This document shows positions 3,290 through 60,569 of a DNA stretch of 64,000 bases, one piece after another; the first letter of the stretch is position 1; each line of letters begins with the position of its first letter. A program made the position numbers and the translations under genes. This DNA comes from Eledone cirrhosa (lineage: Eukaryota). The notes below the pieces were generated by a model that worked only from the letters and a program-made list of their open reading frames with translations, made no database searches and was not told where the DNA came from. The stretch is taken from assembly GCA_964016885.1 (NCBI GenBank), contig OZ024745.1, forward strand, positions 41,044,001-41,108,000, in the 5' to 3' direction.

Positions 3290-3363
<74 letters not shown>

Positions 3364-4432
3364 ATATAGATAAATCTACCAAAATATACGGTAGTGTCCA
3401 ATCCGTATGAAGAACTCAATGTAATCCAAATATCACGAAAAGAGAAGATGCATTCAAAAAATTTTTCGATGAAAATCACAGGAAAACAGAGTCAATATAA
3501 ATTATTAAAAACAATGAATAAAAACAAAGAAACAGTTCCTTATATTAAAAAATTCATCATTTTACGATCGTTTCTAGGATATATATGTATGTTCGTATCA
3601 TATAGATGTATATGTAAAAATTTTACAAACTATCAGAGGGAATATACATACCTACACATATATATGCTGTATTCAGAAATAATTGTTTCTACTTTTTGGC
3701 AAAAGGCCAGCAATTACCCAGTCAGAAATAATGATATTTGTTTATTGAAAAAAAAACAAATATTTATTATAATAGGTCTGTTTGGGAACAGATTTTGAAT
3801 TGACCAATAGAAAAGTAGTAAGTGGTCAAGTTGATAGAATAGTAGTAGTAAAAATTTAATTTAGGGGTAGAGGAATGTAGACTTCAGTTTTGAATGGAAA
3901 GAATATTTTGAATGAAAAGATTACGTTGGGGATGAAAAGAGGTCAAGCCGGTGAAAGGTACACGAAAATTTGATGTTATTAAAGAATAATTATAATGTTA
4001 AAATCGAAGGAGAATAACATTTTAGTGAGAAATACCAATCTTATTTAAAACATAAGGAATTTAGATCTATAAAAGGAAATTAAATTAATTTAATTGATAG
4101 GCATACTTATAGGGATAAATTTATATTAATTCATATAGATGTGATAAATAAGAGTTAGATGTTATTAAAGAATGTTGTTAAAAACGAAGGAAAACATTTT
4201 TTTGGGGGATAAATGTATTAGTGAGAAATAACAAACTTATATAGACTACAAGGATTTTAGATTCATAACAGGAAATTAAAATAGTTTATATGTATACTTA
4301 TAGGTATTCATTTTAGGAAAGGATAGCTGTAAAAGGGAAATAAAATTATGAAGTTCTCAGTAGTAAAATACTAATTATAAGTTAACTAAATTTAAAAACT
4401 AATTATAATAATTTGTAAAATATAAGTGTATA

Positions 4433-5559
4433 TTAATTAGGTTTATAATATTTGACAGTTTTTCTAATTCTATGATTGCACGATATAATTAATTCTTGTC
4501 GCTTATTTAATAGGATATCCTTAGATTTCATTATTTCAAAAAGTTCCTGGGAATATAATCTACACTCATATCTGTTATTTTGATAAGAGGTGGCCCTTTT
4601 GAGCACACTCCAGGTCAGGTTATAATCTATATTATTTTTTCTATAATTATTAATTATTTCAGCCAATTATTAGCTAATGCGGCATTTTAAAAACTGTTTG
4701 TGGGTATTAAATCTTACTTTAGATTGGTTAGAAGTAGCTCCTATATATAAATAAGTTGATTAAATGGAGCAGTATACCAAGTAACTAGTCTATTACGGTT
4801 TCGATGCTGTTTTTTTATTTTTATACGATGTATCCTGATGGGAATTTATTATACATATGTTTAGTTAGATTCAATGATTTAGGTATTTTAGCCAGATTAT
4901 TAGGAATTTTGTTAGTAATGTTAATAACATATATTGGAGTATTAGGATGAATGGTTATTTGAAAGTTATTATATTGTATGTGAGAAGAGGTAGAGAAATT
5001 AAGTTTTAAGTTGGTGTTTTGGGGTATAGTGTGAGTGGCATTTAGGTATGTATTTTTCATTTGGTGTTTGTTGGTAATATTGGGTTGTATGTTTGTAGTA
5101 TTATTGGTACAAGGTATATATAGTAATTTGTTTTTGTGGCCGCTTCTAGCTAAATCTTCGTTATAAAAGGTCGCATTTTTATCAAATACATCCTTGTTAG
5201 ATGAAAGGTTAGAAATCCTTAATGAGATATTATATGCTAGGTTTTTAAGGATAGATCTAGGGTGAATGGATTGTGAGTGTATGTAATGTAAGTTTTGGTT
5301 AGGTTTATGGTAAGGTTGATAGATACCCGTAGATAAGTCTAAAGTTATATCAAGGAAATTAACTGGTGTTTTCAAATGTAATAGTGAGACTATAATAGTC
5401 TTTGAGGAAAGTTCTAATAAGTTTTTTATCTTTTTCAATTTCTGATATGCTAAGGTTAGTGGAAAGAAGAAGACAGTCATCACGATATAAACCACCTTTA
5501 AGGTGGGGAAAAGAAGCATTTATGTTAAATAGAAGAAAGAGGCCCACAAGATCGGTAAT
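4433..5559 (-). pseudogene. inverted partial copy of PLE RT C-terminal half and GIY-YIG endonuclease
   Basis: ORFs 5359..5562 (GGLYRDDCL), 4821..5519 (VNFLDITLDL...YHKPN) and 4433..4666 (CRLYSQEL...LLNKRQELIISCNH) duplicate the + strand copy. Confidence 0.85.
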
Positions 5560-5759
5560 CACTACCGTATATTTTGGTAGATTTATCTACCTACTTTGCT
5601 CCTAATTTTATACAGGTATTCATATTTTAATATATATTTTTTATATTTATATATATTATTTTATAACTCCCTATATATATAGTTGAGCTCTCTTTCTTGT
5701 CCATTATCCATATTACAAAGGAAAAACAATACTTGGGAACTTCTTTACGTTCTAAGGAT

Positions 5760-8259
5760 GAATTCTTACTTCTTATGATACAAAAAAACCAACCAATTCA
5801 TCAAAAGGGTCAGATGGAGAGCCTGCCACTTTGATAAAAAACAAAATGTACTGATAAGAAATATTTATATGATTTCACTACATATAAGAACCCACCACAC
5901 AACTCCTTGCTTGAAAACTTCGAGTAAGACCTTTTTAACTTAATCAAACACCTCAAATTTAAGAAATATAAATCTAATTTTCAAAAGGATCTTGATTCTA
6001 CCTTATTGGATCTAAAAAAATCTAACAAAATCCCTGTCCACTCTGACAAAACTGGAAATCTGTACCATATGGATATTGATAATTACAATGAGTTCATTTA
6101 TAAAGAACTCAGGAAAAATTATAAAAAAACAAATAATGCGGCACTTACCAATATCAACAACAAAACACACAACATAGTAAATAAACTCAATATTGAAGAT
6201 AGAACTGAACCTTTGGCACTGAAAAAACCACACTTTAACCTGAAAGATCAAAAATCTAATTTTAACTCTAATCCTTTTATAAGACTTATATGCCCTTCCA
6301 AATCTGACATTGGCATCATTAGTAAAAAAATTTAGATAGAGTCATACCACAATTAAAGAAACATGTTAATTTACCACTCTGGGAAAACACATCCCAGGTA
6401 ATTAACTGGTTTACTAATATTAGAAATAAATCATCTGCTCCATTTCTACAATTCGATATAGATGCTTATTATCCCTCTATATCACCCATACTCCTGAACA
6501 AAGCCTTAATATTTGCCAAAAATAGATCAAACTTAGCTGTGGATGACATTAATATTATCACGCTCGCTAGACAAACACTACTGGAATTTCAGAAGTAATA
6601 CTGGACCAGAAATACATATAGTAATCTACTCGACATTACTATGGGCTCTAGTGATTCTACCCAAATTACCGATCTTGTGGGCCTCTTTCTTCTATTTAAC
6701 ATAAATGCTTCTTTTCCCCACCTTAAAGGTGGTTTATATCGGGATGACTGTCTTCTTCTTTCCACTAACCTTAGCCTATCAGAAATTGAAAAAAGTAAAA
6801 AAACTTATTAGAACTTTCCTCAAAGATATTATAGTCTCACTATTACATTTGAAAACACCAGTAAAGTAGTTAATTTCCTTGATATAACTTTAGACTTATC
6901 TACGGGTATCTATCAACCTTACCATAAACCTAACCAAAACTTACATTACATACACTCACAATCCAATCACACTAGATCTATCCTTAAAAACCTAGCATAT
7001 AATATCTCACTCAGAATATCTAAACTTTCATCTAACCAGGATATATTCGATAAAAATGCGACCTTTTATAACGAAGATTTAGATAGAAGCGGCCACAAAA
7101 ACAAATTAGTATATATACCTTGTACCAATAATACTACAAACATACAACCCAATATTACCAACAAACACCAAATGAAAAATACACACCTTAATGCCACTCA
7201 CACTATACCCCAAAATACCAACTTAAAACTTAATTTCTCTACCTCTTCTCACATACAATATAATAACTTTCAAAAAACAATTCATCCTAATACTCCAGTA
7301 TATGTTAATAACATTACTAACAAAATTCCTAATAATCAGGCTAAAACACCTAAATCAGTGAATCTAATTAAACATATGTATAATAAATTCACTAATACTA
7401 ACTCTCTTAGTAAACATCAGGATACATCGTATAAAAATAAAAACAGCATCGAAACCGTAATAGACGAGTTACTTGGCATAATCTACAAATTAAAGATAAT
7501 ATCCCTAAAACTCCATTTAATCTACAAATTAAAGATAATATCCCTAAAAATTGTTTTACTATCCTAGAGAAAAACTTCCCGCCACACCATAAATACCATC
7601 AAATTTTAAATAGATCAACGGTCAAATTCTCCTACTCCACTACCAAAAATATACAACAAAATATAAGTGCCTACAATGCATATAAATGTAAAAAAAACCA
7701 TGAATATACAACCAACACATCAAACTAACCATAATACTAAAATATACCACAGCAAACCACCATCTCCTTCACATACAATAAGTCGAGTAAATTCCACACC
7801 TAATTTGACTAACTCCCCTGATATAATAATCACGAAAGGTTGTAACTCTAGAAACAAAGCAAATTGCCCATTAAAAGGAAATTGCCTTATTAATAACATA
7901 GTATATAAATGTAAAATTAGCACTAAGGACTCAACTTATTCATATATAGGAGCTTCTTCTAACCAATTTAAAGTAAGATTTAATACTCACAAACACAGTT
8001 TTAAAAATGCCGCATTAGCTAATAATTGGCTGAAATAATTAATAATTATCGAAAAATGAATATCGATTATAACCTGACCTGGAGTGTGCTCAAAAGGGCC
8101 ACCCCTTATCAAAATAACAGATATGAGTGTAGATTATGTTCCCAGGAACTTTTTGAAATAATGAAATCTAAGGATATCCTATTAAATAAGCGACAAGAAT
8201 TAATTATATCGTGCAATCATAGAATTAGAAGAACTTTCAAATATTATAAACCTAATTAA
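5760..8259 (+). pseudogene. PLE reverse transcriptase plus C-terminal GIY-YIG endonuclease, disrupted by stops and frameshifts
   Basis: FIKRVRWRACHF (~5798), HSDKTGNLY, RLICPSKSDIG, FLQFDIDAYYPSI, DITMGSSDSTQITDLVG, GGLYRDDCL, VNFLDITLDL, CPLKGNCLINNIVYKC...YIGASSNQFKVRFNTHKHSF, CRLCSQE...LLNKRQELIISCNH. Confidence 0.9.
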
Positions 8260-8972
8260 TATACACTTATATTTTACAAATTATTATAATTAGTTTTTTT
8301 AAATTTAGTTAACCTATAATTAGTATTTTATTACTGAGAACTTCATCATTTTATTTCCCTTTTACAGCTATCTTTTCCTAAAATTAATACCTATAAGTAT
8401 ACATACAAACTATTTTAATTTCCTGTTATGAATCTAAAATCCTTGTAGTCTATATAAGTTTGTTATTTCTCACTAATACATTTATACCCCCAAAAATTTT
8501 TTCCTTCGTTTTTAACAACATTCTTTAATAACATCTAACTCTTATTTATCACATCTATATGAATTAATATAAATTTATCCCTATAAGTATACCTATACAT
8601 TAAATTAATTAATTTCTTTTTATAGATCTAAATTCCTTATGTTTTAAATAAGATTGATATTTCTCATTAACATATTTATCCTATATTTTATTCTCCTTCG
8701 ATTTTAACATTAGCATTATTCTTTAATAACATCAAATGTTCGTGTACCTTTCGCCGGCTTGACCTCTTTTCATCCCCAAAGTAATCTTTTCATTCAAAAT
8801 ATTCTTTCCATTCAAAACTGAAGTCTGCATTCCTCTACCCCTAAATTAAATTTCTACTACTACTATTCTATCAACTTGACCACTTACTACTTTTCTATGG
8901 GTCAATTCAAAATCTGTTCCCAAACAGACCTATTATATTAAATCTTTGTTGCTGTTTTTCAATAAACAAATA

Positions 8973-9108
8973 TCATTATTTCTGAAGACAGCATATATAT
9001 GTGTGGGTAAGTATATTCCATCTGATAGTTTGTAAATTTTTTACATAGATCTATATGATATACATACCAACACACATATATATCTTAGAAACGATCGTAA
9101 AATGATGA
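8973..9108 (+). ncRNA. type I hammerhead ribozyme with long stem II in PLE 3' repeat
   Basis: Stem I TCATTATTT/AAATGATGA; CTGAAGA 8982-8988; stem II includes ATATATATGTGTG/CACACATATATAT; GAAA 9088-9091; palindromic ACGATCGT; GTA cleavage triplet. Confidence 0.75.
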
Positions 9109-9156
9109 ATTTTTTAATATAAGGAACTGTTTCTTTGTTTTTATTCATTGTTTTTA

Positions 9157-9219
<63 letters not shown>

Positions 9220-9329
9220 ACATATAACTGTGTTTGTATGTACAGTAATATAGCAGGGAAATTATACTAGCGACCCGATAGCTAAGCGTTTTTATTGATG
9301 CCTGCTTCAATAGAATGTCTGAAACGTTT

Positions 9330-12964: not shown

Positions 12965-13367
12965 ATATGTATGTACGTATACATACATACTTACATTTAA
13001 GTAAGTGCCGTACTAAGAGTGAGAAATGAAATTTCGTTTCATTCTATTCCATTTATCGTTTTTGGTGCGCCTGGCCGACTGAACTCACTCGATATGCAAA
13101 TAGGGCTGCTCAGCCGTTAATTTTCATGAGGAAAGTATATACTTTCGGACGTTCAACCATCTGGCAGAAAGGTATACGGTGCTGACGATAGCTAACAAGC
13201 TTGAAACTAGTACATCGTTCCTGTGTCAGTGTTGAACAAAAAGGTGACGTGGTTGCCTAAACACTGTACGGCGTAAATCAGGCTGTTCGTTTGTTTACAA
13301 ACGAACAAAGCGAACATTATAATAAATGTTCGGTAAACTGATATGTGCATATATATATGTGTGCCTG

Positions 13368-14369: not shown

Positions 14370-14413
14370 TAGGTAAATATACACGGGTGTGTATGATTGT
14401 GTATAGAAGATTA

Positions 14414-15195
<782 letters not shown>

Positions 15196-21970: not shown

Positions 21971-21984
21971 TATATATATATATA

Positions 21985-24260
21985 AATAACGAAGGAAATG
22001 TGGTAAGGAACCAGGTGGACCATAACGCACCAAAGTACTCAGTACTTGAGGTAGTAGAGTGGGTAATAGGAACCAGTAAGACCCCGACAGCTGAGCTCAA
22101 GCCGTTTCGACGGCTAATTCTGGACTAAAAGAAAATTTATCCTGGTATTTAAATAGCCGATCTTCTGAAGGGGTAATTCCATATATGGTCAAAGTGATTG
22201 TCAAAAATCAGTAGTAATTCTGTGGTTGCAAATTAGTAGGGGAGATGGTGGCTAAACCTGCCAGTAGGAGAAAGAGGGGAGGGGGTGGAGTAGACCCAAT
22301 CAAGCGTTGGTAGTGCCAGCTACAGCTGGGCATGAGGTCAAAGAAGATACAGGGGAGGGGAGGGGGAGGAAGTCGGAACGGTAGGTAGAACAATGGGGGG
22401 TAGAAATATATAGGAAAGAAAAAAAAATACTGAGAGTGAAGAAAAGCAAATAAGTGTAAAGAAAAAAGTAAAGTAAATTAAATTCTACGACCTAGGTCTC
22501 AGGCTATTGTTAGGCTAGAATAAAATAAAGAAAGAAAGAAAGAAGTAAAGAAATAAATAAATAAAGAAATAACGAAATAAGTAAAAGAACTAGGTGGGAC
22601 GCAATAGGCAAGGACCCTTTTAAGAGGTATAAGTACGTAAATGATACGGTGACGGGTCAACAAAAGGGGCCAAAATACTAAAGAGACTACCACGAAATAA
22701 ACAATAAAGGTTTCCATCTCGGGCCAGCAACGACCCAGTGCAGCAAAGTGAACTTGTACGAGATAATAATTCTGAGTCCCGAGAAAAATATATACTAATG
22801 CTAACTCAAGGACAACAACATCACCTATGATCTCACTTGGAGATTACTGTCCAGAGCCAATTCTTACACGGGAGGACGCCGTCCGTGCAATTTATGCTCG
22901 GAGGAACTTTACAAATGCTGTTTTCGACGGACCAACTCCTAAACAAGAAAGATGAACTGGTCACTGCATGTAAACATAGATTGCGTAGGACTTACCTCGC
23001 CCTCAAACCCCATAACGACCCGGGGGGGGGGGTAGACTAGGGCTATAACACCCCACTTGCCGATTTTGCAATGGGTAACCCATGCTTGCCAAGGAAGACG
23101 TAAGATCTTCTTTGTATTCTTTTATCGCTTCCTTTATTTCCTTCCCCCCTCTCTCCTTAGTCCTTCTACCCCAGCTCTTCTCCTTTGTCGGCGTCTTTTC
23201 TCGCCCACCCGAGGCTGCCCTTTGGCCCCATGTAGCTTTAGTACCCCCACCACCCCCTCCCCTAGTCTATGATAGATTTGGCGGACTCCGCACTTTATAG
23301 CAGTTGGCTTAGACCCCGGATTCTTGCCCCCTTTTTCCGACCGCTCCCACTATTCTCTGTGCCCTCTATATTTCTTAGTGGCACTTATGCCTTATTTTTT
23401 CGTTTCAGTATTTCTTGCTTCACTTTTCTTCTGGGCGGGGTGGATTCTGAATTTATTTCTCCGTATTCTACCTTTATTTCGTACGAACTTTCATGTAGCT
23501 TGTTTTAGATCTTTTAGAGTTAGCATTAGTATATATTTTTCTCGGGACTCAGAATTATTATCTCGTACAAGTTCACTTTGCTGCACTGGGTCGTTGCTGG
23601 CCCGGGATGGAAACCTTTATTGTTTATTTCGTGGTAGTCTCTTTAGTATTTTGGCCCCTTTTGTTGACCCGTCACCGTATCATTTACGTACTTATACCTC
23701 TTAAAAGGGTCCTTGCCTATTGCGTCCCACCTAGTTCTTTTACTTATTTCGTTATTTCTTTATTTATTTATTTCTTTACTTCTTTCTTTCTTTCTTTATT
23801 TTATTCTAGCCTAACATTAGCCTGAGACCTAGGTCGTAGAATTTAATTTACTTTACTTTTTTCTTTACACTTATTTGCTTTTCTTCACTCTTAGTATTTT
23901 TTTTTTCTTTCCTATATATTTCTACCCCCCATTGTTCTACCTACCGTTCCGACTTCCTCCCCCTCCCCCTCCCCTGTATCTTCTTTGACCTCATGCCCAG
24001 CTGTAGCTGGCACTACCAACGCTTGATTGGGTCTACTCCACCCCCTCCCCTCTTTCTCCTACTGGCAGGTTTAGCCACCATCTCCCCTACTAATTTGCAA
24101 CCACAGAATTACTACTGATTTTTGACAATCACTTTGACCATATATGGAATTACCCCTTGAGAAGATCGGCTATTTAAATACCAGGATAAATTTTCATTTA
24201 GTCCAGAATTAGCCGTCGAAACGGCTTGAGCTCAGCTGTCGGGGTCTTACTGGTTCCTAT
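21985..24260 (+). mobile_element. 5'-truncated Naiad-like PLE with ~740-bp inverted terminal arms
   Basis: 22066-22803 is the reverse complement of 23521-24260; extra tail 21985-22065 on the left arm only; GIY-YIG C-terminus in the centre; (TA)n flanks. Confidence 0.85.
22805..23015 (+). pseudogene. PLE GIY-YIG endonuclease C-terminal fragment
   Basis: LKDNNITYDLTWRLLSRANSYTGGRRPCNLCSEEL, frameshift, QMLFSTDQLLNKKDELVTACKHRLRR; homologous to 8026..8259. Confidence 0.8.
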
Positions 24261-37910: not shown

Positions 37911-40900
37911 TTACAGACACATACTCAGAGTAGGCCCATTCACTCGGGCCATACTTGCTTCTCTCACACATCTTTCAACAAAATTCTGGGAAGAGAGCAC
38001 TTCCCTCTCTACCCTGATTTTCCTTTTCAAATGAAATTTGAAAAAGTTAATCAGGGCATCACCGAAGAGGTAAGTGCTCGTCTTCAGCCCTTTCAAACGT
38101 GTCCACCATACTATCTCTTTCGCCATGGCCACCAGACAGATAAAAACTGCCTGCCCTTCCCGGCTAAAGGAAGAGGGCAGGGTAATGCTCACGATGGACT
38201 CAGTTGATAGCTGGATCCGTCCTACACGTGACAGCACGTGTTCGACATAAACCCACAAGTCAGCAATGCTCAGACACTGGACGAGTGCGTGCAGGACGGT
38301 TTCGTCGCTCTGGGCGCATCTCGGACATGCCCGGCTGACGGCACCTCCATGTCTTTAGAGTTTATCCCGAACTGGCAAAGCTCCTCGGTAGCACTGCCAG
38401 GCCAGGGATATCTGGAAGTTATCCATAGGCCCCGGCCCGAAAGTCCTTCCGAAGAGATTGGCTAGTTGATTGGCTAGTCGACGCCTAGAGTATCTCCAAG
38501 TACGTCGTCGCTCTTCCCCTCCACTAATCCTCTATAGAACGCCAAGGTAGAGTTTCCACCGATCACATTGCCCGATTGGTCGAGGGCTGTGAGCGCCTGA
38601 AGACATTCCAGTCTCCAAGCGCTCCCTTTCGGTCTTCGCTTGACCCAGGACTGCAGTTCCGTCAAGGAGGCGAGCTGGGGAAAGACGTGTCTAGCAAACG
38701 GCGACCACACCTGATCACCGTCGAGGAAGAGGTGGAGGTGTAGCCTGAGCGCCTGTCTGCACATCATCAGCCACGGCAGGCTCAGCCCTCCACGTAGCGG
38801 GTGTTGACAGCAGATGGACCGCCTGACCATCGGAGCGCGTCCCTTCCACAAACAGCGAAAGAGCAAACGCTCCAGCGCAGTCAGGCGGGGCTTAAGACAG
38901 GCTACGACGGTCAGGCGGTAGTAGATGACGGACGCGATGTACGCATTGGCCACCTCCGCTCGACCTTTCAGGGATAGCTTCCTCTCCGCCCATTTCTGGG
39001 TGAGAGAAGCCACCCTGCACGTCACCTCGTCCCAGTTGTTGTCCGTCTGGAGGTCCGCCCCGAACCAGACCCCTAGCAATTTAACCGGTCCGTCCGTCCA
39101 GCGCCCGACGAAGCTGTTGGACGGCATGGACCTGCCTCTCCAGGTGCCGAGCTGCAGGCCCACTGACTTTTCCTGGTTGATCATTGCTCCTGTCACCGCT
39201 TCGTATTCTCTTAGTGAAGTGCCGATCGCCTCGATGTGTTTGGCGTTCGACACCACTACGGTGACATCGTCCGCATATGCTGACACGGATCTTCCGCATC
39301 CTAGTTCGCGCGGGACCCCCCTCAACGTCTCCATTTTGTGCAGTAAAATCTCGAGAGTCAATACGTACAAGAGGGACGAGAGGGGACATCCTTGGCGGAC
39401 CGAGCGGATGATGTTGAACGGTTCCGAAAGGTGACCGTTCACTCTCACCACAGAGCAGATGTCGCTGTGCATGGCAGCGATCCAGCCTCTGAAGACGGAC
39501 CCAAATCCAACCGCCCTCAGGACTGCCGCTAGGTCACGATGGTTGACCCTATCGAAAGCTTTCGACTTATCCAAATTGATCAAGGACCCACCCGTGCCAG
39601 GTTCCCTAGCTACCCTCTCTACGATGTATCGCATGAGGTGGAGGTTGTCGTGGATGGATCTGTCGGGAATGGCGCACGTCTGTGCCTCTCCCACCAGACC
39701 ACCAACGACAAGCGCCAACCTCTTTGCTAGCACCTTGGCCAAGATCTTGAACTCTGTGTTTAGCAGAGTTATAGGCCTGAAATTATCTATGTTATCCCCC
39801 TTGTTCGGATCCTTTCTCAGCAGCGCCACAGCTCCTCGGCTCACAGAGCTGGAAATTCTCCCGTTCTGTTGCCAGTTGCAGTAGACGTCCGCCAAGAGGC
39901 CTCCGAACAAGTATGGCATCTGTACGTAAACTTCATAGGGCAGACCATCCAAACAAGGCGATTTACCCCTTGTGCAGCCAGTCATTGATTTCCGTACTTC
40001 AGCGCCTGTTATCGGCTTTTCGCAACACTCCTCCTCAGTGGCCGAGAGCCGCGGCAGTCCGTCGAGGTAGACACTAAAGTCCATCCCTCGATCCGGCCCG
40101 CCGCTGCCCCTGAACGGCTGTGCGAAGTGTCGCTGAAAAGCTTCACACATTTGCCCGGGATCGAGTAGCATTCACCCGTCGTGGTCCACCAAAGACCGGA
40201 TCGTGGCTTTGTTGCCACGATGCGCCTCCGCCACTCGGGCCCATTGAACGGCTTTCGTCCCCTAGTGTCTGAGAGCACGCACCCTAGCTCTGCGAACGCA
40301 GCCTTCGTGCTTTGCATTGAAGAATTGGTCAAGGGCCAATTTCGCCGCAAGTACGTCGGTCGCGATGCCTTTGCTAAGCGCCTCGTCTAATTTTCTAACT
40401 AATTCTCCCTCTGCTCTATTTTTCTCTATTGCTAAAGACTTACTAAACCTAATGGACTCTATTCTAATTGCTCTTTTCAGAGCACACCACCACTTGTTGT
40501 TGACGATGGCCTCCACCAACGCCCGCTTAACTAGTTCGCTAATCCGGTCTCTGTAGGCCTTGTAAGGACGCGTTTAGCTTCCAGTAGCCGGGTCCTCGTC
40601 TATGAAGCCTATCTAAGTCAAGCACACAGTTCACGAATTTGTGGTCTGTATAGCTCACTATCTTGAATTGTGGACAGCCTATGCTAGACCTATCAATTTC
40701 CCTACAAAATACTCTATCTAGATATGATCTGGATGACCCTATGCGATTTGTCCAAGTCCACATTGGCACATTCGGGAAATCCAATCGGTACCTGTCAGAC
40801 AGTTCAAAACGCCTTAGCAGGTTGGTGAGGCTCTTGCACCCTCCTCCCCTCTCCGCTGATCCCACATAGTCCCAGTGTGCATCTAAGATCCCGTTCCAGT

Positions 40901-41323
40901 CGCCCACTAACACTAAAGAGCGGGAAGTTCCAAGAAAGGTCTCCAGACGCCGGAAGAAATCAGGCCGCCCTGCTCCTGTCGGGGCATAGACGGCCACTAG
41001 CCTGAAGACTTTCCCATCTCCACTGGTCACGTCTAACACCACCAACTTACCTTCCGGGTCCAGGAAGATGGCTCGTATGGCGAGATCCAAACCTCTCCGA
41101 AAAAGCACAGCAACTCCCCCTCCCCCGATCCCGGACGGCTGGGAGATGCGTACACATCGTAGCCGCCGAAGATCGGTGCGAAGGCCCGTGCCTCGGATAT
41201 TCTGGTCTCGCTGATGGCCACTACATCTATGTTTAGTGACCTGAGGTCGTTGAGCAGGTGGCCCTGCTTCCATGTCGACCCCAAGCCACGCGCATTTATG
41301 CTGCCTATTCTGAGTGAGGTCAT
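37911..41323 (-). pseudogene. LINE ORF2: AP endonuclease, reverse transcriptase, C-terminal zinc finger (frameshifts and stops)
   Basis: MTSLRIGSINARGLG, VAISETR, LVAVYAP, LVGDWNGILD, SYLDRVF, YTDHK (APE); KSPCLDGLP, NFRPITLLNTEFKILAK, LDKSKAFDRV, SVRQGCPLS, YADDVTV (RT); CPRC...ETVLHALVQC. Confidence 0.92.
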
Positions 41324-41357
41324 GTTGAAATGGAGTGGAAAAGATGGGAAAGACCAC

Positions 41358-43287
41358 TTACCTTTCTTCTTTTCGCAGAGGAAGGATGGTTTTACCATCC
41401 CTTTTCACTTGATCGTCTGGTGAAGGGACCGTTGGATCGCCCCTTCGGCTGGTCGTCGGCTCTTCTGTGAGTATATTCGAATATACCCTCCGGTTGAGTG
41501 TCCCTCCTAGGTCTCTGAAATCACCAACTACGTTGGGGAATTTCGTTTTAATGTTTGTGTATTGTTTCTGTGCTATTTTTACCAGTCTTATGTTAGTTGG
41601 TGTTTTGATTGGTGCTGGTATTATGTAGTCGTGCTGTGAAATGTCTGTGTGTTCAATTATGTAAGTCATTAATTTCTTGTTGTGTGTATTTATTGCTGTG
41701 CATTTGTTTTTCTGGGGGTGGGGTGTTTGTTCTGCTATTTTCTTGTCGTTGTTGCTGGGTGTGTGTGTTTTGTTGTGTTTGCGATGTTGGTGCTTGTGGT
41801 GGTGGTTTTGAAGGTGCTGTTGTTGTTGGCGGTGGGGTTGCCGCCGGTGGTGATGGTGCTGCTAGTGTGCGTGGTGATGGTGTTGGTGGTGTAGCTGCTG
41901 TAAGTCTTTTTGCAGTAGCCTTTACCATTTTTTGGTTTCTTTCCTTCCTTTTCGAAGGCGACGATTCGCTGCTTCTGCGTTTGAGCCTTCTTGCGACCTT
42001 TTGCCATCCCTCTTCCACCTCACACTCCATGTCCGATTCTGTGAGGTCGGGGAGTGGTACCAGTTCCACTCTTTCACTTGCTTTTGGTGATGTTTGCAGT
42101 GGAGTCTTCGATCCACAGCGAAAGCATTTCGGGCGTTTGCCCTCAACACTTATAGGCAGTTCAGTGTCGTTATTGAAGTCTATCACATCCGGGATAGCTT
42201 CGATGCACTCCTGGTTGGTTTGGATTAACATCTCAATGGAGGTGCCGACCCAATCTTCTCGTACTTTTTTTCTGTACTTGCAGTACAGTTGTTTTGTCCT
42301 CGATTCCGACGAGGACAGACGCGGCCAGCCAAGAAGGGGCCATCCCGGGGGGGGGGGGCGTTATCAGTTTGACTCTCACAATCTTTTGTCCGCAGTAGGA
42401 GGGCACCAACACCATTTCCTCGCTGCTTAGGGTCACTAAGGTTGAGCCTTTGCCTCCTTGTGTGTGGCAAATAGCACGTCCACGGTGGCATATTTCTTGC
42501 CTCGGGTGATATGCGTTTTCCGCTGCCACACAGACCCTAAGGCTTTTTGTATTTGAGCCTCTGTGGCCCTTTCAACCCTACGGGATTTTGTGCTTACTGT
42601 ATGGTACGTGACCGTACAGTGCTGTTGGGTTTCGAAACATCTTTCGGCTGCCTTGCAGATTGCTCGGTGACCGCTTTTCGTCACCATCTTTGCTTCCTGT
42701 AATTCCTCATTTGTTATAAGGATGGTTTCCAGGTTCTTTGCGATACCTGCAAACGAGATTGGTTTTTCTTTGTTGTTGTTGGTGTTGTCGTCGTCAGAGC
42801 TGCTGTTACTTTTGTTGTTGCTGCTGGTACTACGACTGCCGCCGCCGCTGTTGCTGTGGTTGTTGTTGTTGTTGCTGTTGCTGCTGCTGTTGTTGTTGTT
42901 GTTGCTGCTAATGCTGTTGTTGTTTATGCTGCTGCTGATGCTGTTGCGGCTGCTACTGTTGTTTTCCTTGTCACTGTTGCTGCTGCTGCTGTTATTACGG
43001 CTGCTACTGCTATTATTCATGACGTCAGACGAATGAAATGGGTTTTCGTATTTACCGCACACCTTTTTCGTCGTTGTCGTCGTCGTGGAGAAATTTTCCA
43101 CGTTTTGCACGTGATTTAGGGAACTATTTTTCTTTACTGGCGTAGCTTGCGAAAGAGAAGGGAGGGAGAGAGACACATTTAGAGAAGGGAGGGAGAGAGA
43201 CAATCTTCTCTCTGGTGTAGTGACGATTGAGGAAGAAGAAGACGGAATGAGTGGGAGTGACTTGTGAAAATTCTTTTTTGTAGCCAT
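41358..43287 (-). pseudogene. LINE ORF1 (low-complexity N-terminus, RNA-binding region, partial zinc knuckle), frameshifted
   Basis: ORFs 42436..43287, 42233..42529, 41653..42231 (VEGKRPKCFRCGS) and 41358..41669 in series upstream of ORF2. Confidence 0.75.
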
Positions 43288-43512
43288 GTTTTTTTTGGTT
43301 TAAAATAAATATTGGGCACAAAACCCCAATAAGCGGTTATTTAACCCCGAAGGGCCAAATAACGGGCAGAAAGACCCCTCTCACGAGGAGGAGGGTGTTT
43401 TTGTCTACAATTTGGTTAAAGTTTTAAACAATTTACAATTGTTATAGCGGTTAAAATTTACAATACCTTACAGAGCCGAGCTCCGTCAACCATGGCATTC
43501 AACAATAATAAT

Positions 43513-49775: not shown

Positions 49776-49962
49776 GAACATGTATGACCCCGAAGGCAGA
49801 GCTCAAGCCGTTTCGACGGCTATTTCTGGATGGCTATTTCAGTCCAGAAATAGCCGTCGAGACGGCTTGAGCTCTGCCGTCGGGGTCATACATTTTCCTA
49901 TTACCGACTCTACTACCCTAAGTATTGAGTACTCTGGTGCGTTATGATCCAACTTCTTCGTT
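49776..49962. mobile_element. mini fold-back of the 21985-24260 PLE family
   Basis: Arms 49776-49830 and 49843-49900; tail 49901-49962 is homologous to 21985-22065. Confidence 0.8.
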
Positions 49963-49970
49963 ATATATAT

Positions 49971-50142: not shown

Positions 50143-50209
50143 TATTTTATTATACATATTTCAGAGGTACTGAGTTAAGTTCAACAGTACGTCTTCATCA
50201 GATAAAATA
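50143..50209 (-). ncRNA. type I hammerhead ribozyme
   Basis: Minus strand TATTTTAT CTGATGA AGAC GTACTG...CAGTAC CTCT GAAA TATGTA TA ATAAAATA; the copy at 51374-51440(+) has core CTGCTGA. Confidence 0.75.
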
Positions 50210-54431: not shown

Positions 54432-54436
<5 letters not shown>

Positions 54437-55333
54437 AGGATGAATATAAAATGAAAGTGCTTTTGTTAAAAAAGGAATTTATTAGGTATTGACATATGTT
54501 TCTGTAACAGACCGAATACCTATGTATCGCTGCTTGCGTAATCATATAATGTTAGCAAGCATTCGATAGCAAATGTATAATCAGTTGTCACTTCTTCAGA
54601 GATTTTGGATAAACTGGATAAAATCAGAAAAATTGAAGTATTTATATTAGTAAAAGAGGAAGGAACAGAGGGGATAGAATATGACAGATGGTAAAATAAT
54701 TTACTGCTAAACAAGTATATAATGGGTTTTTAATGAGAATACCATGAGTAAATCTAAATAAGAATTTTGGGAGTGTCAATTTTAATCTCTACTTGACCAA
54801 CTGGACAGTGGACAGGGCTGGTCATTTGGTGCAGTAGTATTAACTATAAAGTGTCAATTGGGGAAGGGGGAGATTTCGATTGCTACTAAATAACATCAAT
54901 GCTAGTATCCAGCTGGTATATGCACTAGGGAATTGAATCAAGAAATCAGAAATCTCATTTTATCTATAGCAGTTTGTATTAAAAGGTAAATAATAGAAGA
55001 GTTGATAGAATTAAGACTAATAAAGAATGTTCATATCTATTTTGACAATCAAACGGGGATAGAGACAGGCGTTCAATCCTGGTAGTATTTATAATATGAA
55101 AATGTAGATTTTAAGCGATGGTTACAGTATAACGATCGCTCTATTCTGTTATTTAATAAAATGTTTTTGGATTTCATAATACAAAATAATTCTACATTAC
55201 ATAATTTACAAAATTCCTGTCCATTGGAATATGGGAGGGCAGCCGCTATTATATCCCATTTTAGGTGAAATTGTTGGTTATTTTCACGCAGCTGCCAAGC
55301 CATGTCTGCAAGTGTTGTTACATAACGCTGGTT

Positions 55334-55337
<4 letters not shown>
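54432..55337 (-). mobile_element. 5'-truncated Naiad-like PLE (GIY-YIG C-terminus and 3' UTR with hammerhead-like motif 54487-54603)
   Basis: ORF 55073..55303 WQLRENNQQFHLKWDII...CKLCNVELFCI...LLNNRIE...CNHR; CTGAAGA...GAAA CATATG TC; (TA)n on both sides. Confidence 0.8.
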
Positions 55338-55423
<86 letters not shown>

Positions 55424-59408: not shown

Positions 59409-60532
59409 AAGAGTGAAGAATAACATGGTCAACAGTACTAAAAGGGTTTTATTTACAGTATTAGCAATTGTTTCATTGATTAAGTTGTCTAAACATTGCT
59501 AATCACTTGAAGTTGTGTCACTCAATTTTAAATACAATGTATGCTTAATCAAATCATCTGAAAAACTGATTAAAATTATACACGGCGTTTGTAAAATACT
59601 AGGAAAATTCAAATCACAACATCAGTAATAAAGAAAGAAAAAGGAAAAAAGAAAAGAAAAAGAGAGAGAGAAAAAGAAAAAAAAGAAAAAAGAAAAAAGA
59701 TAAAGAAAAAATAATAAATAAATAATAATAAATAAGTTAGAATGAAGATGATAAAAAATAGAAATTAAGTAAAACAAATGTATATGTGTGTGAAGAAAAT
59801 TGAACATAATATGATTCTTGAAAATAGTTGTGGGGATGGTAGGGGTGGTCAAAATATAAAAATGTGATGGTATAAACATAAAAATACTAAATACATACAT
59901 ATATGTATTGGTTAAATTATATTATGAAGAAATAATACAGTGCTAAATAAAGGGTAAATTAGTCAGTTAATAAATTGGATGTTATGTTAGAAGTGAAGAG
60001 AACACGATAGGATATAATGGAAGAGGTGAAATAGTTTTAGGCAAAGAGAGTTAAAGAAACAAAAGTTAGGAGGTTATGATGTTGAATCAGTGATTAGTAG
60101 ATTTATTGACAGTTAGTAATAATTGTTTCTACTTTAGGCACGAGGCCAGCAATTACCCAGTGCATTACTGGTACTTTATTTTATCGACCCCGTAAGGATG
60201 AAAGGCAAAGTCAACCTCGCTGGGATTTGAACTCAGATCGTAAACAGACGTAACTATGCTGGAAAGCATGGCGTCCGGCCCTCTACCGATACTGCCAATC
60301 CACCGAATGGATTATTATAATAGACTCAGGTGGTACAGTTTGAATTATGGAATTGTTGGGTCGAGTCAAGTTAGTTTGAAATTAGTGAATTTAGTAGCTG
60401 CTTTATGCCTACAGAAAACTGACCGCTCTATTTTGCTGTTAAACAGCATTTTGTCATATTTTAAAATATGGAGCAACTCTATATTGCAAAGTCCGCAATG
60501 GGACATTCCATTTCTGTAGGCCTTTGCCCCTG

Positions 60533-60535
<3 letters not shown>
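59403..60535 (-). mobile_element. 5'-truncated Naiad-like PLE with nested SINE and decayed hammerhead (59455-59555)
   Basis: AKAYRNGMSHCGLCNIELLHIL...LFNSKIERSVFCRHK (60366-60530); CAGATGA T TTGATTAAG...CTTAATCAA T GAAA CAATTG; (TA)n on both sides. Confidence 0.75.
60121..60305 (-). mobile_element. SINE copy, nearly identical to 543-727
   Basis: Matches consensus. Confidence 0.9.

Positions 60536-60569
<34 letters not shown>

What the first reader, a model, noticed from the sequence alone, without database searches (positions are those of the whole stretch)
3368..9160. 5.8-kb palindromic Naiad-like PLE whose 3' tail equals its own 5' leader: circular or tandem RNA template
Seen: the inverted arm extends ~135 bp (3368-3500) past the point where the sense copy stops (9160). 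The last 30 nt of this tail, CACTACCGTATATTTTGGTAGATTTATCTA, reappear at 5560-5589 as the start of the ORF-bearing copy. The element map is therefore circularly permuted: ORF, 3'UTR, hammerhead, tail, leader, ORF. Inference: the template is either a hammerhead-processed monomer that circularises (as in retrozymes), with RT starting downstream of the junction and reading through it, or a tandem transcript.
Basis: partly seen in the sequence, partly recalled or inferred. Interest (0 to 1): 0.8.

Follow-up and report, generated by a model that had tools for sequence, protein, structure and literature searches.

The report
Palindromic Penelope-like retroelement with two starts
This is a decayed jumping gene of a known kind with a known mirror-image layout, but its two unequal ends sit just in front of two small conserved RNA hairpins, which suggests how such elements choose where copying begins.

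Summary
A 5'-truncated inverted copy (3367-5559) runs about 130 nt past the sense copy's end, and its last 30 nt equal 5560-5589.

The label is wrong. RT precedes a C-terminal GIY-YIG domain, with RWR, DKT, CxCx5C-type and hammerhead features: Hydra clade, not Naiad.

Palindrome, one-sided tail, tail-equals-leader and the circular-RNA idea are published (Arkhipova 2013, Cervera 2014, Craig 2021, Frangieh 2024). An unchecked scan note describes similar palindromes in another genome.

New here, and not found in my searches: Hydra elements carry two bulged hairpins between hammerhead and ORF (at least one in 35 of 40 families, two in 23; covarying stem). In 22 of 26 ends compared, the 3' end lies -1 to +8 nt from a hairpin start. 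This element ends before hairpin 1 (9160) and before hairpin 2 (3367). So the tail is the roughly 130-nt spacing between two inferred RT starts; the 30 nt are only overlap with the sense copy's truncation point.

If the hairpins set the starts, the template must extend into the next unit's leader. Uncleaved tandem RNA (about 0.55) versus circle (about 0.3) is unresolved; no RNA data.

The parts
3295..3367 (.). (TA)n target, left flank
   Evidence: sequence
3367..5559 (-). Inverted, 5'-truncated copy starting at the equivalent of 6665, with a ~450-nt internal deletion; ends at the long terminus T2 (+196 from the hammerhead cleavage site)
3367..3497 (-). Tail, from short terminus T1 to long terminus T2, about 130 nt, present on this arm only
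3367..3396 (-). 30 nt identical to 5560-5589
3414..3492 (-). Hairpin 1 (ACUC/GAGU lower stem, UU bulge, 3-bp upper stem, long loop); starts 2 nt past the point where the sense copy stops matching
3554..3738 (-). Disrupted hammerhead of the inverted arm (altered core, insertion); cleavage-site equivalent at 3563; bounds approximate
3673..3732 (.). Later 38-nt SINE-like insertion with 11-bp target duplication (3673-3683, 3722-3732)
   Evidence: the piece matches a dispersed repeat at many window sites; 'SINE' is my recalled label
5551..5567 (.). Head-to-head junction at 5559|5560, no direct microhomology, 5-bp mini-palindrome across it
   Evidence: chance about 3%
5560..9160 (+). Near-full-length sense copy (unit about 3.70 kb, about 100 nt short at the 5' end); ends at T1 (+61 to +68)
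5598..5688 (+). Hairpin 2 (GCUC/GAGC lower stem, UU bulge, long AU-rich loop); starts 8 nt past T2 (5589), just upstream of the ORF
5712..8255 (+). Decayed single ORF with stops and frameshifts: RWR 5812, DKT 6045, RT core about 6330-7130, Asn-rich insert about 7130-7440, CxCx5C-type linker at 7841, C-terminal GIY-YIG about 7895-8250 with CxxC and CxH
   Evidence: motif definitions
8256..8972 (+). Long AT-rich 3' UTR with a diverged internal repeat (8381-8538 vs 8571-8736, 74%)
8973..9108 (+). Type I hammerhead: 9-bp stem I, 99 nt between the core halves (long stem II), short stem III with palindromic loop, cleavage after 9099
   Evidence: activity not tested
9160..9220 (.). (TA)n target, right flank

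Best explanation
A decayed insertion of a Hydra-clade Penelope-like retrotransposon into (TA)n. Shown: the anatomy, the clade, two conserved bulged hairpins between hammerhead and ORF, and genomic 3' ends lying just 5' of either hairpin. Inferred: the element protein binds a hairpin, and reverse transcription primed by nicked (TA)n DNA starts a few bases upstream of it, helped by short TA microhomology, so the hairpin itself is not copied. Both target strands were primed, one at T1 (sense arm, copied 3.6 kb to 5560) and one at T2 (inverted arm, stopped at the equivalent of 6665), and the two cDNAs were joined head to head. The tail is the T1-T2 spacing. Because hairpin 2 lies beyond T2, the RNA must continue into the next unit's leader; the most likely template is an uncleaved partial-tandem (pLTR-ORF-pLTR-leader) transcript.
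For: Clade motifs and domain order. Hairpin anchors in 35 of 40 families with at least 130 nt of leader, two in 23, against 3 and 0 of 115 ORF control windows. Hairpin 1 upper pairs are Watson-Crick in 26/27 (13 U-A, 13 C-G), 22/27 and 16/27 cases, each reached by 0 of 5000 shuffles; only the 2-nt bulge register pairs (0.95 versus 0.02-0.18). 22 of 26 ends compared lie -1 to +8 nt from a hairpin start (15 of 18 families). A window-wide scan gives 5 hits, 4 at element termini. All 4 palindromes with both outer ends visible pair one T1 with one T2 (window 3367-9160, 21980-24260, 49778-49963; L079). L008 repeats the geometry with a 15-nt overlap. 267 raw reads of run X6 show TATATATA at the T1 position. 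Published Hydra consensus ends are bimodal: 12 at +30 to +70, 11 at +88 to +153, 1 at +355 of 24. In vitro, Poseidon RT starts internally at two sites that define the tail, on uncleaved RNA.
Against: No RNA or biochemical data for this family. Misses: L050 ends near the cleavage site, L062 is not a terminus, L066 and L021 have variant hairpins that the pattern missed. Hairpin 2 upper pairs 2-4 are not above shuffles. Shuffles ignore relatedness; the 26 ends were chosen where a continuing copy existed, and the window scan was designed after seeing the motif. The Penelope-13_HM consensus has both arms ending at about +41. 4 of 4 has a 1-in-16 chance under even odds. The tail-to-leader joint in other genomic copies was not among the 15 joints shown (43 hidden, repeat flanks skipped). 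An active hammerhead would cut the start sites off a linear template, which this model must avoid by slow or protein-gated cleavage. Poseidon starts without homology to the target, unlike the TA microhomology seen here.
Confidence: 0.6

Rival explanations
1. Same hairpin-set starts, but the template is a hammerhead-cut, religated unit-length circle; RT runs about one lap and stops in the hairpin its own complex holds.
For: Proposed for these elements by Cervera and de la Pena; circles are shown for short retrozymes. In Hydra the hairpins lie just downstream of the hammerhead, so a cleaved monomer carries both start sites at its 5' end and is a useful template only if circular (inference). The short palindromic stem III suits dimer-only cleavage. 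Among full-ORF relatives with both ends visible, L023 and L053 (T1) begin in hairpin 1's 3' arm, L031 (T2) in hairpin 2's, and L029 is about one unit long.
Against: 4 of 9 such copies fit (window sense copy included); L043 (+82), L052 (+37), L074, L068 and the window's sense copy (-101) do not, and selecting full ORFs confines 5' ends to this region anyway. Poseidon hammerhead mutants still insert and no RNA reads ended at the cut site. A circle needs a tandem precursor first. Contigs with exact terminal overlaps (9 of 83) fit collapsed tandems equally well.
Confidence: 0.3
2. The hairpins serve translation initiation, an internal promoter or endonuclease recognition, and RT starts nearby only because TA-rich sequence there pairs with the (TA)n primer.
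For: Hairpin 2 lies about 15-55 nt before the ORF start; the 12 nt upstream of the hairpins are 83% and 72% AT; the D. virilis tail was needed for endonuclease recognition; ribozyme-linked translation initiation is known.
Against: The hammerhead-to-ORF interval is AT-rich in many relatives, yet ends cluster within about 10 nt of the hairpins, some with little or no TA homology (L001, L003, L074). The variable loop (8-19 nt in relatives, about 70-80 nt here) argues against a fixed double-stranded DNA site; U-U outnumbers A-A mismatches 34 to 9, but G-U and A-C are equal at 12.
Confidence: 0.15
3. The inverted arm arose by fold-back self-priming (for example on an antisense template, Arkhipova 2013) or by a template jump, not by a second priming.
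For: A 5-bp mini-palindrome spans the junction (chance about 3%); junction palindromes were read this way in rotifers.
Against: A fold-back on the sense cDNA cannot supply 130 nt that the sense arm lacks, and T1 is a recurrent natural end. The second palindrome's junction shows no such hairpin.
Confidence: 0.1
4. Assembly artefact or chance match.
For: Long inverted repeats flanked by microsatellites are hard to assemble.
Against: The arms differ by about 4% substitutions, 14 indel events and a later insertion; the layout recurs in the window and in unrelated loci.
Confidence: 0.01

Closest known systems
Hydra clade of Penelope-like elements (Craig et al. 2021, PMC8557442), e.g. Hydra-1_Obim, Penelope-13_HM
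   Same: RT then C-terminal GIY-YIG; RWK-like, DKT, CxCx5C, CxxC and CxH motifs; 3' type I hammerhead; (TA)n target. Penelope-13_HM is listed with a 5'-truncated inverted copy.
   Different: Unit about 3.7 kb (usually under 3 kb), Asn-rich insert, long 3' UTR, 99 nt between the hammerhead core halves, long hairpin loops, tail about 130 nt instead of 30-40. A different family from Hydra-1_Obim, judged by eye. The paper's main text has no occurrence of 'hairpin'.
Poseidon PAc of Anolis (Frangieh et al. 2024, PMC11167929)
   Same: Two internal RT starts downstream of the hammerhead define the tail; tandem RNA; both target strands are nicked and extended.
   Different: Other clade; starts lie inside the ORF in an AC-rich stem-loop, without target homology; no duplicated hairpin in the text I read.
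Penelope elements of Adineta vaga (Arkhipova et al. 2013, PMC3846280)
   Same: Inverted pLTR, tail on one end only, junction palindromes, Asn-rich ORF inserts.
   Different: 31-bp tail; a self-priming model was proposed.
Non-LTR retrozymes (PMC7229834; bioRxiv 10.64898/2026.07.22.740005)
   Same: Type I hammerhead, kinship with pLTRs; circular RNAs shown.
   Different: Non-coding tandem repeats of roughly 50-970 nt; this element is kilobases long, ORF-bearing, and no circle is shown.
Naiad clade
   Same: Tandem or inverted insertions, tail, (TA)n bias.
   Different: N-terminal endonuclease, IFD, no canonical hammerhead: none fits.

Membership tests
Hydra PLE | RT followed by C-terminal GIY-YIG endonuclease | tested here: met
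   tblastn and HMM order; Pfam GIY-YIG only weakly, E 0.05
Hydra PLE | RWK motif and DKG changed to DKT | tested here: met
   RWR at 5812, DKT at 6045 (definition)
Hydra PLE | CxCx5C linker | tested here: met
   C-N-S-x5-C at 7841: spacing kept, second Cys is Ser in this decayed copy; intact in the homolog consensus
Hydra PLE | CCHH absent; CxxC and CxH beside the conserved E and N | tested here: met
   read from the translation
Hydra PLE | No IFD insertion in RT | tested here: met
   gapless alignment to P0002 and P0006 across motifs 3-4; spacing like published Hydra rows by eye
Hydra PLE | Type I hammerhead near the 3' end | tested here: met
   core and stems I and III present, stem II much extended; cleavage not tested
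Hydra PLE | (TA)n insertion | tested here: met
   both flanks
Hydra PLE | Length generally under 3 kb | tested here: not met
   unit about 3.70 kb; a tendency in the paper, not a criterion
Hydra PLE | Phylogenetic placement with reference Hydra RTs | not tested
   reference proteins were seen only in a supplement; no tree was built
Naiad PLE | N-terminal GIY-YIG before RT | tested here: not met
Naiad PLE | No canonical hammerhead; DKA motif; IFD | tested here: not met
   hammerhead and DKT present, no IFD
Retrozyme | Short non-coding tandem unit | tested here: not met
   3.7-kb ORF-bearing unit
Retrozyme | Circular RNA intermediate | not testable with these tools
   no RNA holder listed

The most novel reading that the evidence does not exclude
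Hydra-clade retrotransposons copy themselves from a hammerhead-cut, religated 2.4-3.7-kb protein-coding RNA circle. A protein dimer grips two conserved bulged hairpins, primes one target strand in front of each (giving palindromes with one short and one long end), and each RT stops after about one lap when it meets a bound hairpin.
Probability: 0.25. Interest if true: 0.8.

Novelty: new member of a known kind. Interest (0 to 1): 0.45.

Why it matters
The origin of the tail, the inverted copies and the role of the hammerhead are open questions for Penelope-like elements, the closest retroelement relatives of telomerase RT. The duplicated hairpin gives a short cis-element that predicts both RT start sites across a clade, turns 'tail' into 'distance between two hairpins', and makes circle versus tandem testable from 5' end maps or one in vitro assay.

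Tried and rejected
No whole genome is held, so copies could not be mapped genome-wide. No RNA holder listed. The single read-laying run did not show the tail-to-leader joint among 15 listed joints; 43 were hidden and the repeat flanks skipped, so it is inconclusive; summed depths are not copy numbers. An exact 23-nt search of metagenome contigs found 0. A homolog search with the endonuclease piece found none. Viral contigs held no relatives. Alignment A1 was too diverse for two scans; A2 worked. Rfam gave no hammerhead or hairpin family, only sub-threshold matches. The apparent 14-nt overlap in L068 is microsatellite and was dropped, leaving 15 of 28 loci with post-hammerhead sequence matching their own leader; the 28 were picked from 83 for having a hammerhead, and several of the rest lack a leader or end at T1. 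L062 is not a terminus but stays in the count of 26. The minimum-energy fold does not give the active hammerhead, and for hairpin 2 gives only the lower stem. Rejected: Naiad, assembly artefact, simple fold-back, and the idea that the 30 nt are the canonical tail. Not done: tree, structure prediction, covariance model.
Full report
Observation. The window is AT-rich, microsatellite-dense animal DNA. It is probably from a cephalopod: this is an inference from named homologs of Octopus vulgaris and Argonauta and a recalled likeness of its commonest dispersed repeat. Between two (TA)n tracts lie a near-full-length sense copy (5560-9160) and, head to head with it, a 5'-truncated inverted copy (5559 to 3367) that starts at the equivalent of 6665 and lacks about 450 nt. 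The arms differ by 3.8-4.3% substitutions and 14 indel events, and the left arm has a later 38-nt insertion with an 11-bp duplication, so this is old genomic sequence, not an assembly fold-back. The left arm runs about 130 nt past the sense end; its last 30 nt equal 5560-5589, the only two such hits at up to 8 mismatches.

Identity. The decayed ORF has RT first and GIY-YIG last. RWR, DKT, a CxCx5C-type linker, CxxC and CxH, no CCHH and no IFD match the Hydra definition and, by eye, the published Hydra alignment. Naiad is excluded. A type I hammerhead with cleavage after 9099 has 99 nt between its core halves, against 10-25 nt in the metagenome relatives where my scan found one. No tree was built.

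What is already known. An inverted 5'-truncated copy and a tail at one end only are standard (Craig 2021; Arkhipova 2013; a curation guide). A Hydra family with an inverted copy is listed. In Poseidon the tail is the stretch between two internal RT starts on tandem RNA, and hammerhead cleavage is not needed. Circular templates were proposed in 2014.

What is new here. I fetched 83 loci of relatives (77 metagenome, 6 genome contigs; 69 families). Between hammerhead and ORF they carry two copies of a bulged hairpin: RCUC paired with GAGY, a 2-nt 3' bulge (UU in 45 of 57), and a short upper stem. Of 40 families with at least 130 nt of leader, 35 have one or more and 23 have two; 115 ORF control windows gave 3 and 0. 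Chosen by anchors only, hairpin 1's upper pairs are Watson-Crick in 26/27, 22/27 and 16/27 cases, with U-A and C-G exchanging 13 to 13 at the first pair, and none of 5000 shuffles reaches these; hairpin 2 supports only the first pair (28/30; 32 of 5000). Shuffles ignore relatedness. In 22 of 26 comparisons between a copy that stops and one that continues, the end lies -1 to +8 nt from a hairpin start; two misses have variant hairpins, one ends near the cleavage site, and one is not a terminus. The 26 were those with a continuing partner, not all loci. Ends of 24 published Hydra consensi, computed from supplement numbers, are bimodal as well.

In this element hairpin 1 is in the tail (3492 to 3414) and hairpin 2 in the leader (5598-5688), both with long loops. 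The sense copy ends 2 nt before hairpin 1 and the inverted copy 8 nt before hairpin 2. The tail is therefore the T1-T2 spacing, and the 30 nt are its overlap with the sense copy's truncation point; L008 shows the same geometry with 15 nt. Two more palindromes in the window (one other family) and L079 also pair a short with a long end (4 of 4 with both ends visible), whereas the Penelope-13_HM consensus does not. Reads of run X6 support T1 as a recurrent end (267 loose ends) and show copies crossing T2 into the leader (41 reads at 5591, 40 with another letter); the tail-to-leader joint itself was not among the rows shown.

Mechanism. Shown: anatomy, hairpins, and position of ends. Inferred: the protein binds a hairpin and RT starts just 5' of it on a nicked (TA)n primer; both target strands are primed, one per hairpin; the cDNAs join head to head. 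A simple fold-back cannot supply the extra 130 nt. Linear uncleaved tandem RNA (about 0.55) is simpler and matches the only biochemistry I saw. A circle (about 0.3) remains live: cleavage would leave both starts at the 5' end of a monomer, and 4 of 9 full-ORF copies with both ends visible are within about 20 nt of one unit, three of them stopping in the hairpin that matches their start; the other five do not fit, and the sample is biased.

Literature seen. PMC11167929: parts 1-2 of 4 of the text and a supplement search with no hits; figures are not held. PMC8557442: passages, section 11, supplement parts 1, 2, 52 and 53 and searches. PMC3846280, PMC4209133, PMC7229834, PMC8969392, PMC13725137: passages only. 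bioRxiv 10.64898/2026.07.22.740005: parts 1-3 of 5, supplements not seen. The hairpin did not turn up in searches (most papers seen as listings only) or in Rfam. Repbase entries, Arkhipova 2006 and supplementary figures were not seen and could mention it.

Verdict. A new family of a known clade with a known layout and a wrong label, plus a clade-wide cis-element that appears undescribed and makes the tail and circle questions testable. Interest 0.45.

Noticed in passing
window 21980-24260: Second palindromic Hydra-type insertion in (TA)n, arms 99% identical, endonuclease remnant at 22793-22963, variant hammerhead core with long stem II; the left arm runs 86 nt past the right arm's end.
   Followed up: yes
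window 49778-49963: About 190-bp palindromic stump of the same family as 21980-24260, one short and one long end, in (TA)n.
   Followed up: yes
window 54432-55338 (-): 5'-truncated Hydra-type copy of a third family; hammerhead with 90 nt between the core halves; ends in (TA)n 57 nt after the cleavage site.
   Followed up: partly
window 60375-60536 (-): Another Hydra-type endonuclease remnant, its 3' UTR interrupted by the common dispersed repeat.
   Followed up: no
window 13182-13212 (+), 50151-50201 (-): Further type I hammerhead motifs without a detected ORF.
   Followed up: no
window 14386-14719: Fold-back element with 94-bp inverted ends (87%) enclosing a canonical-looking hammerhead at 14567-14539.
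   Followed up: no
window about 38000-43300 (-): Non-LTR retrotransposon with endonuclease-like and RT-like ORFs, higher in GC than its surroundings; read from the ORF list only.
   Followed up: no
window 8912-9115 and 3404-3607: Laid depth over the hammerhead and tail is several times that over the ORF, with loose ends showing related stem II variants: possibly abundant stumps or a non-autonomous relative (depth is not copy number).
   Followed up: no
L041:1426, L043:2280: Two copies of one family begin 42-44 nt upstream of the cleavage site, at the hammerhead's 5' edge.
   Followed up: no
L050 about 2574; L052 about 245: One copy ends about at the hammerhead cleavage site and another begins about 5 nt after it; single cases that could reflect cleaved RNA.
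   Followed up: no
L078-L083: Hydra-type elements in contigs filed under bacterial genomes, probably host contamination.
   Followed up: no
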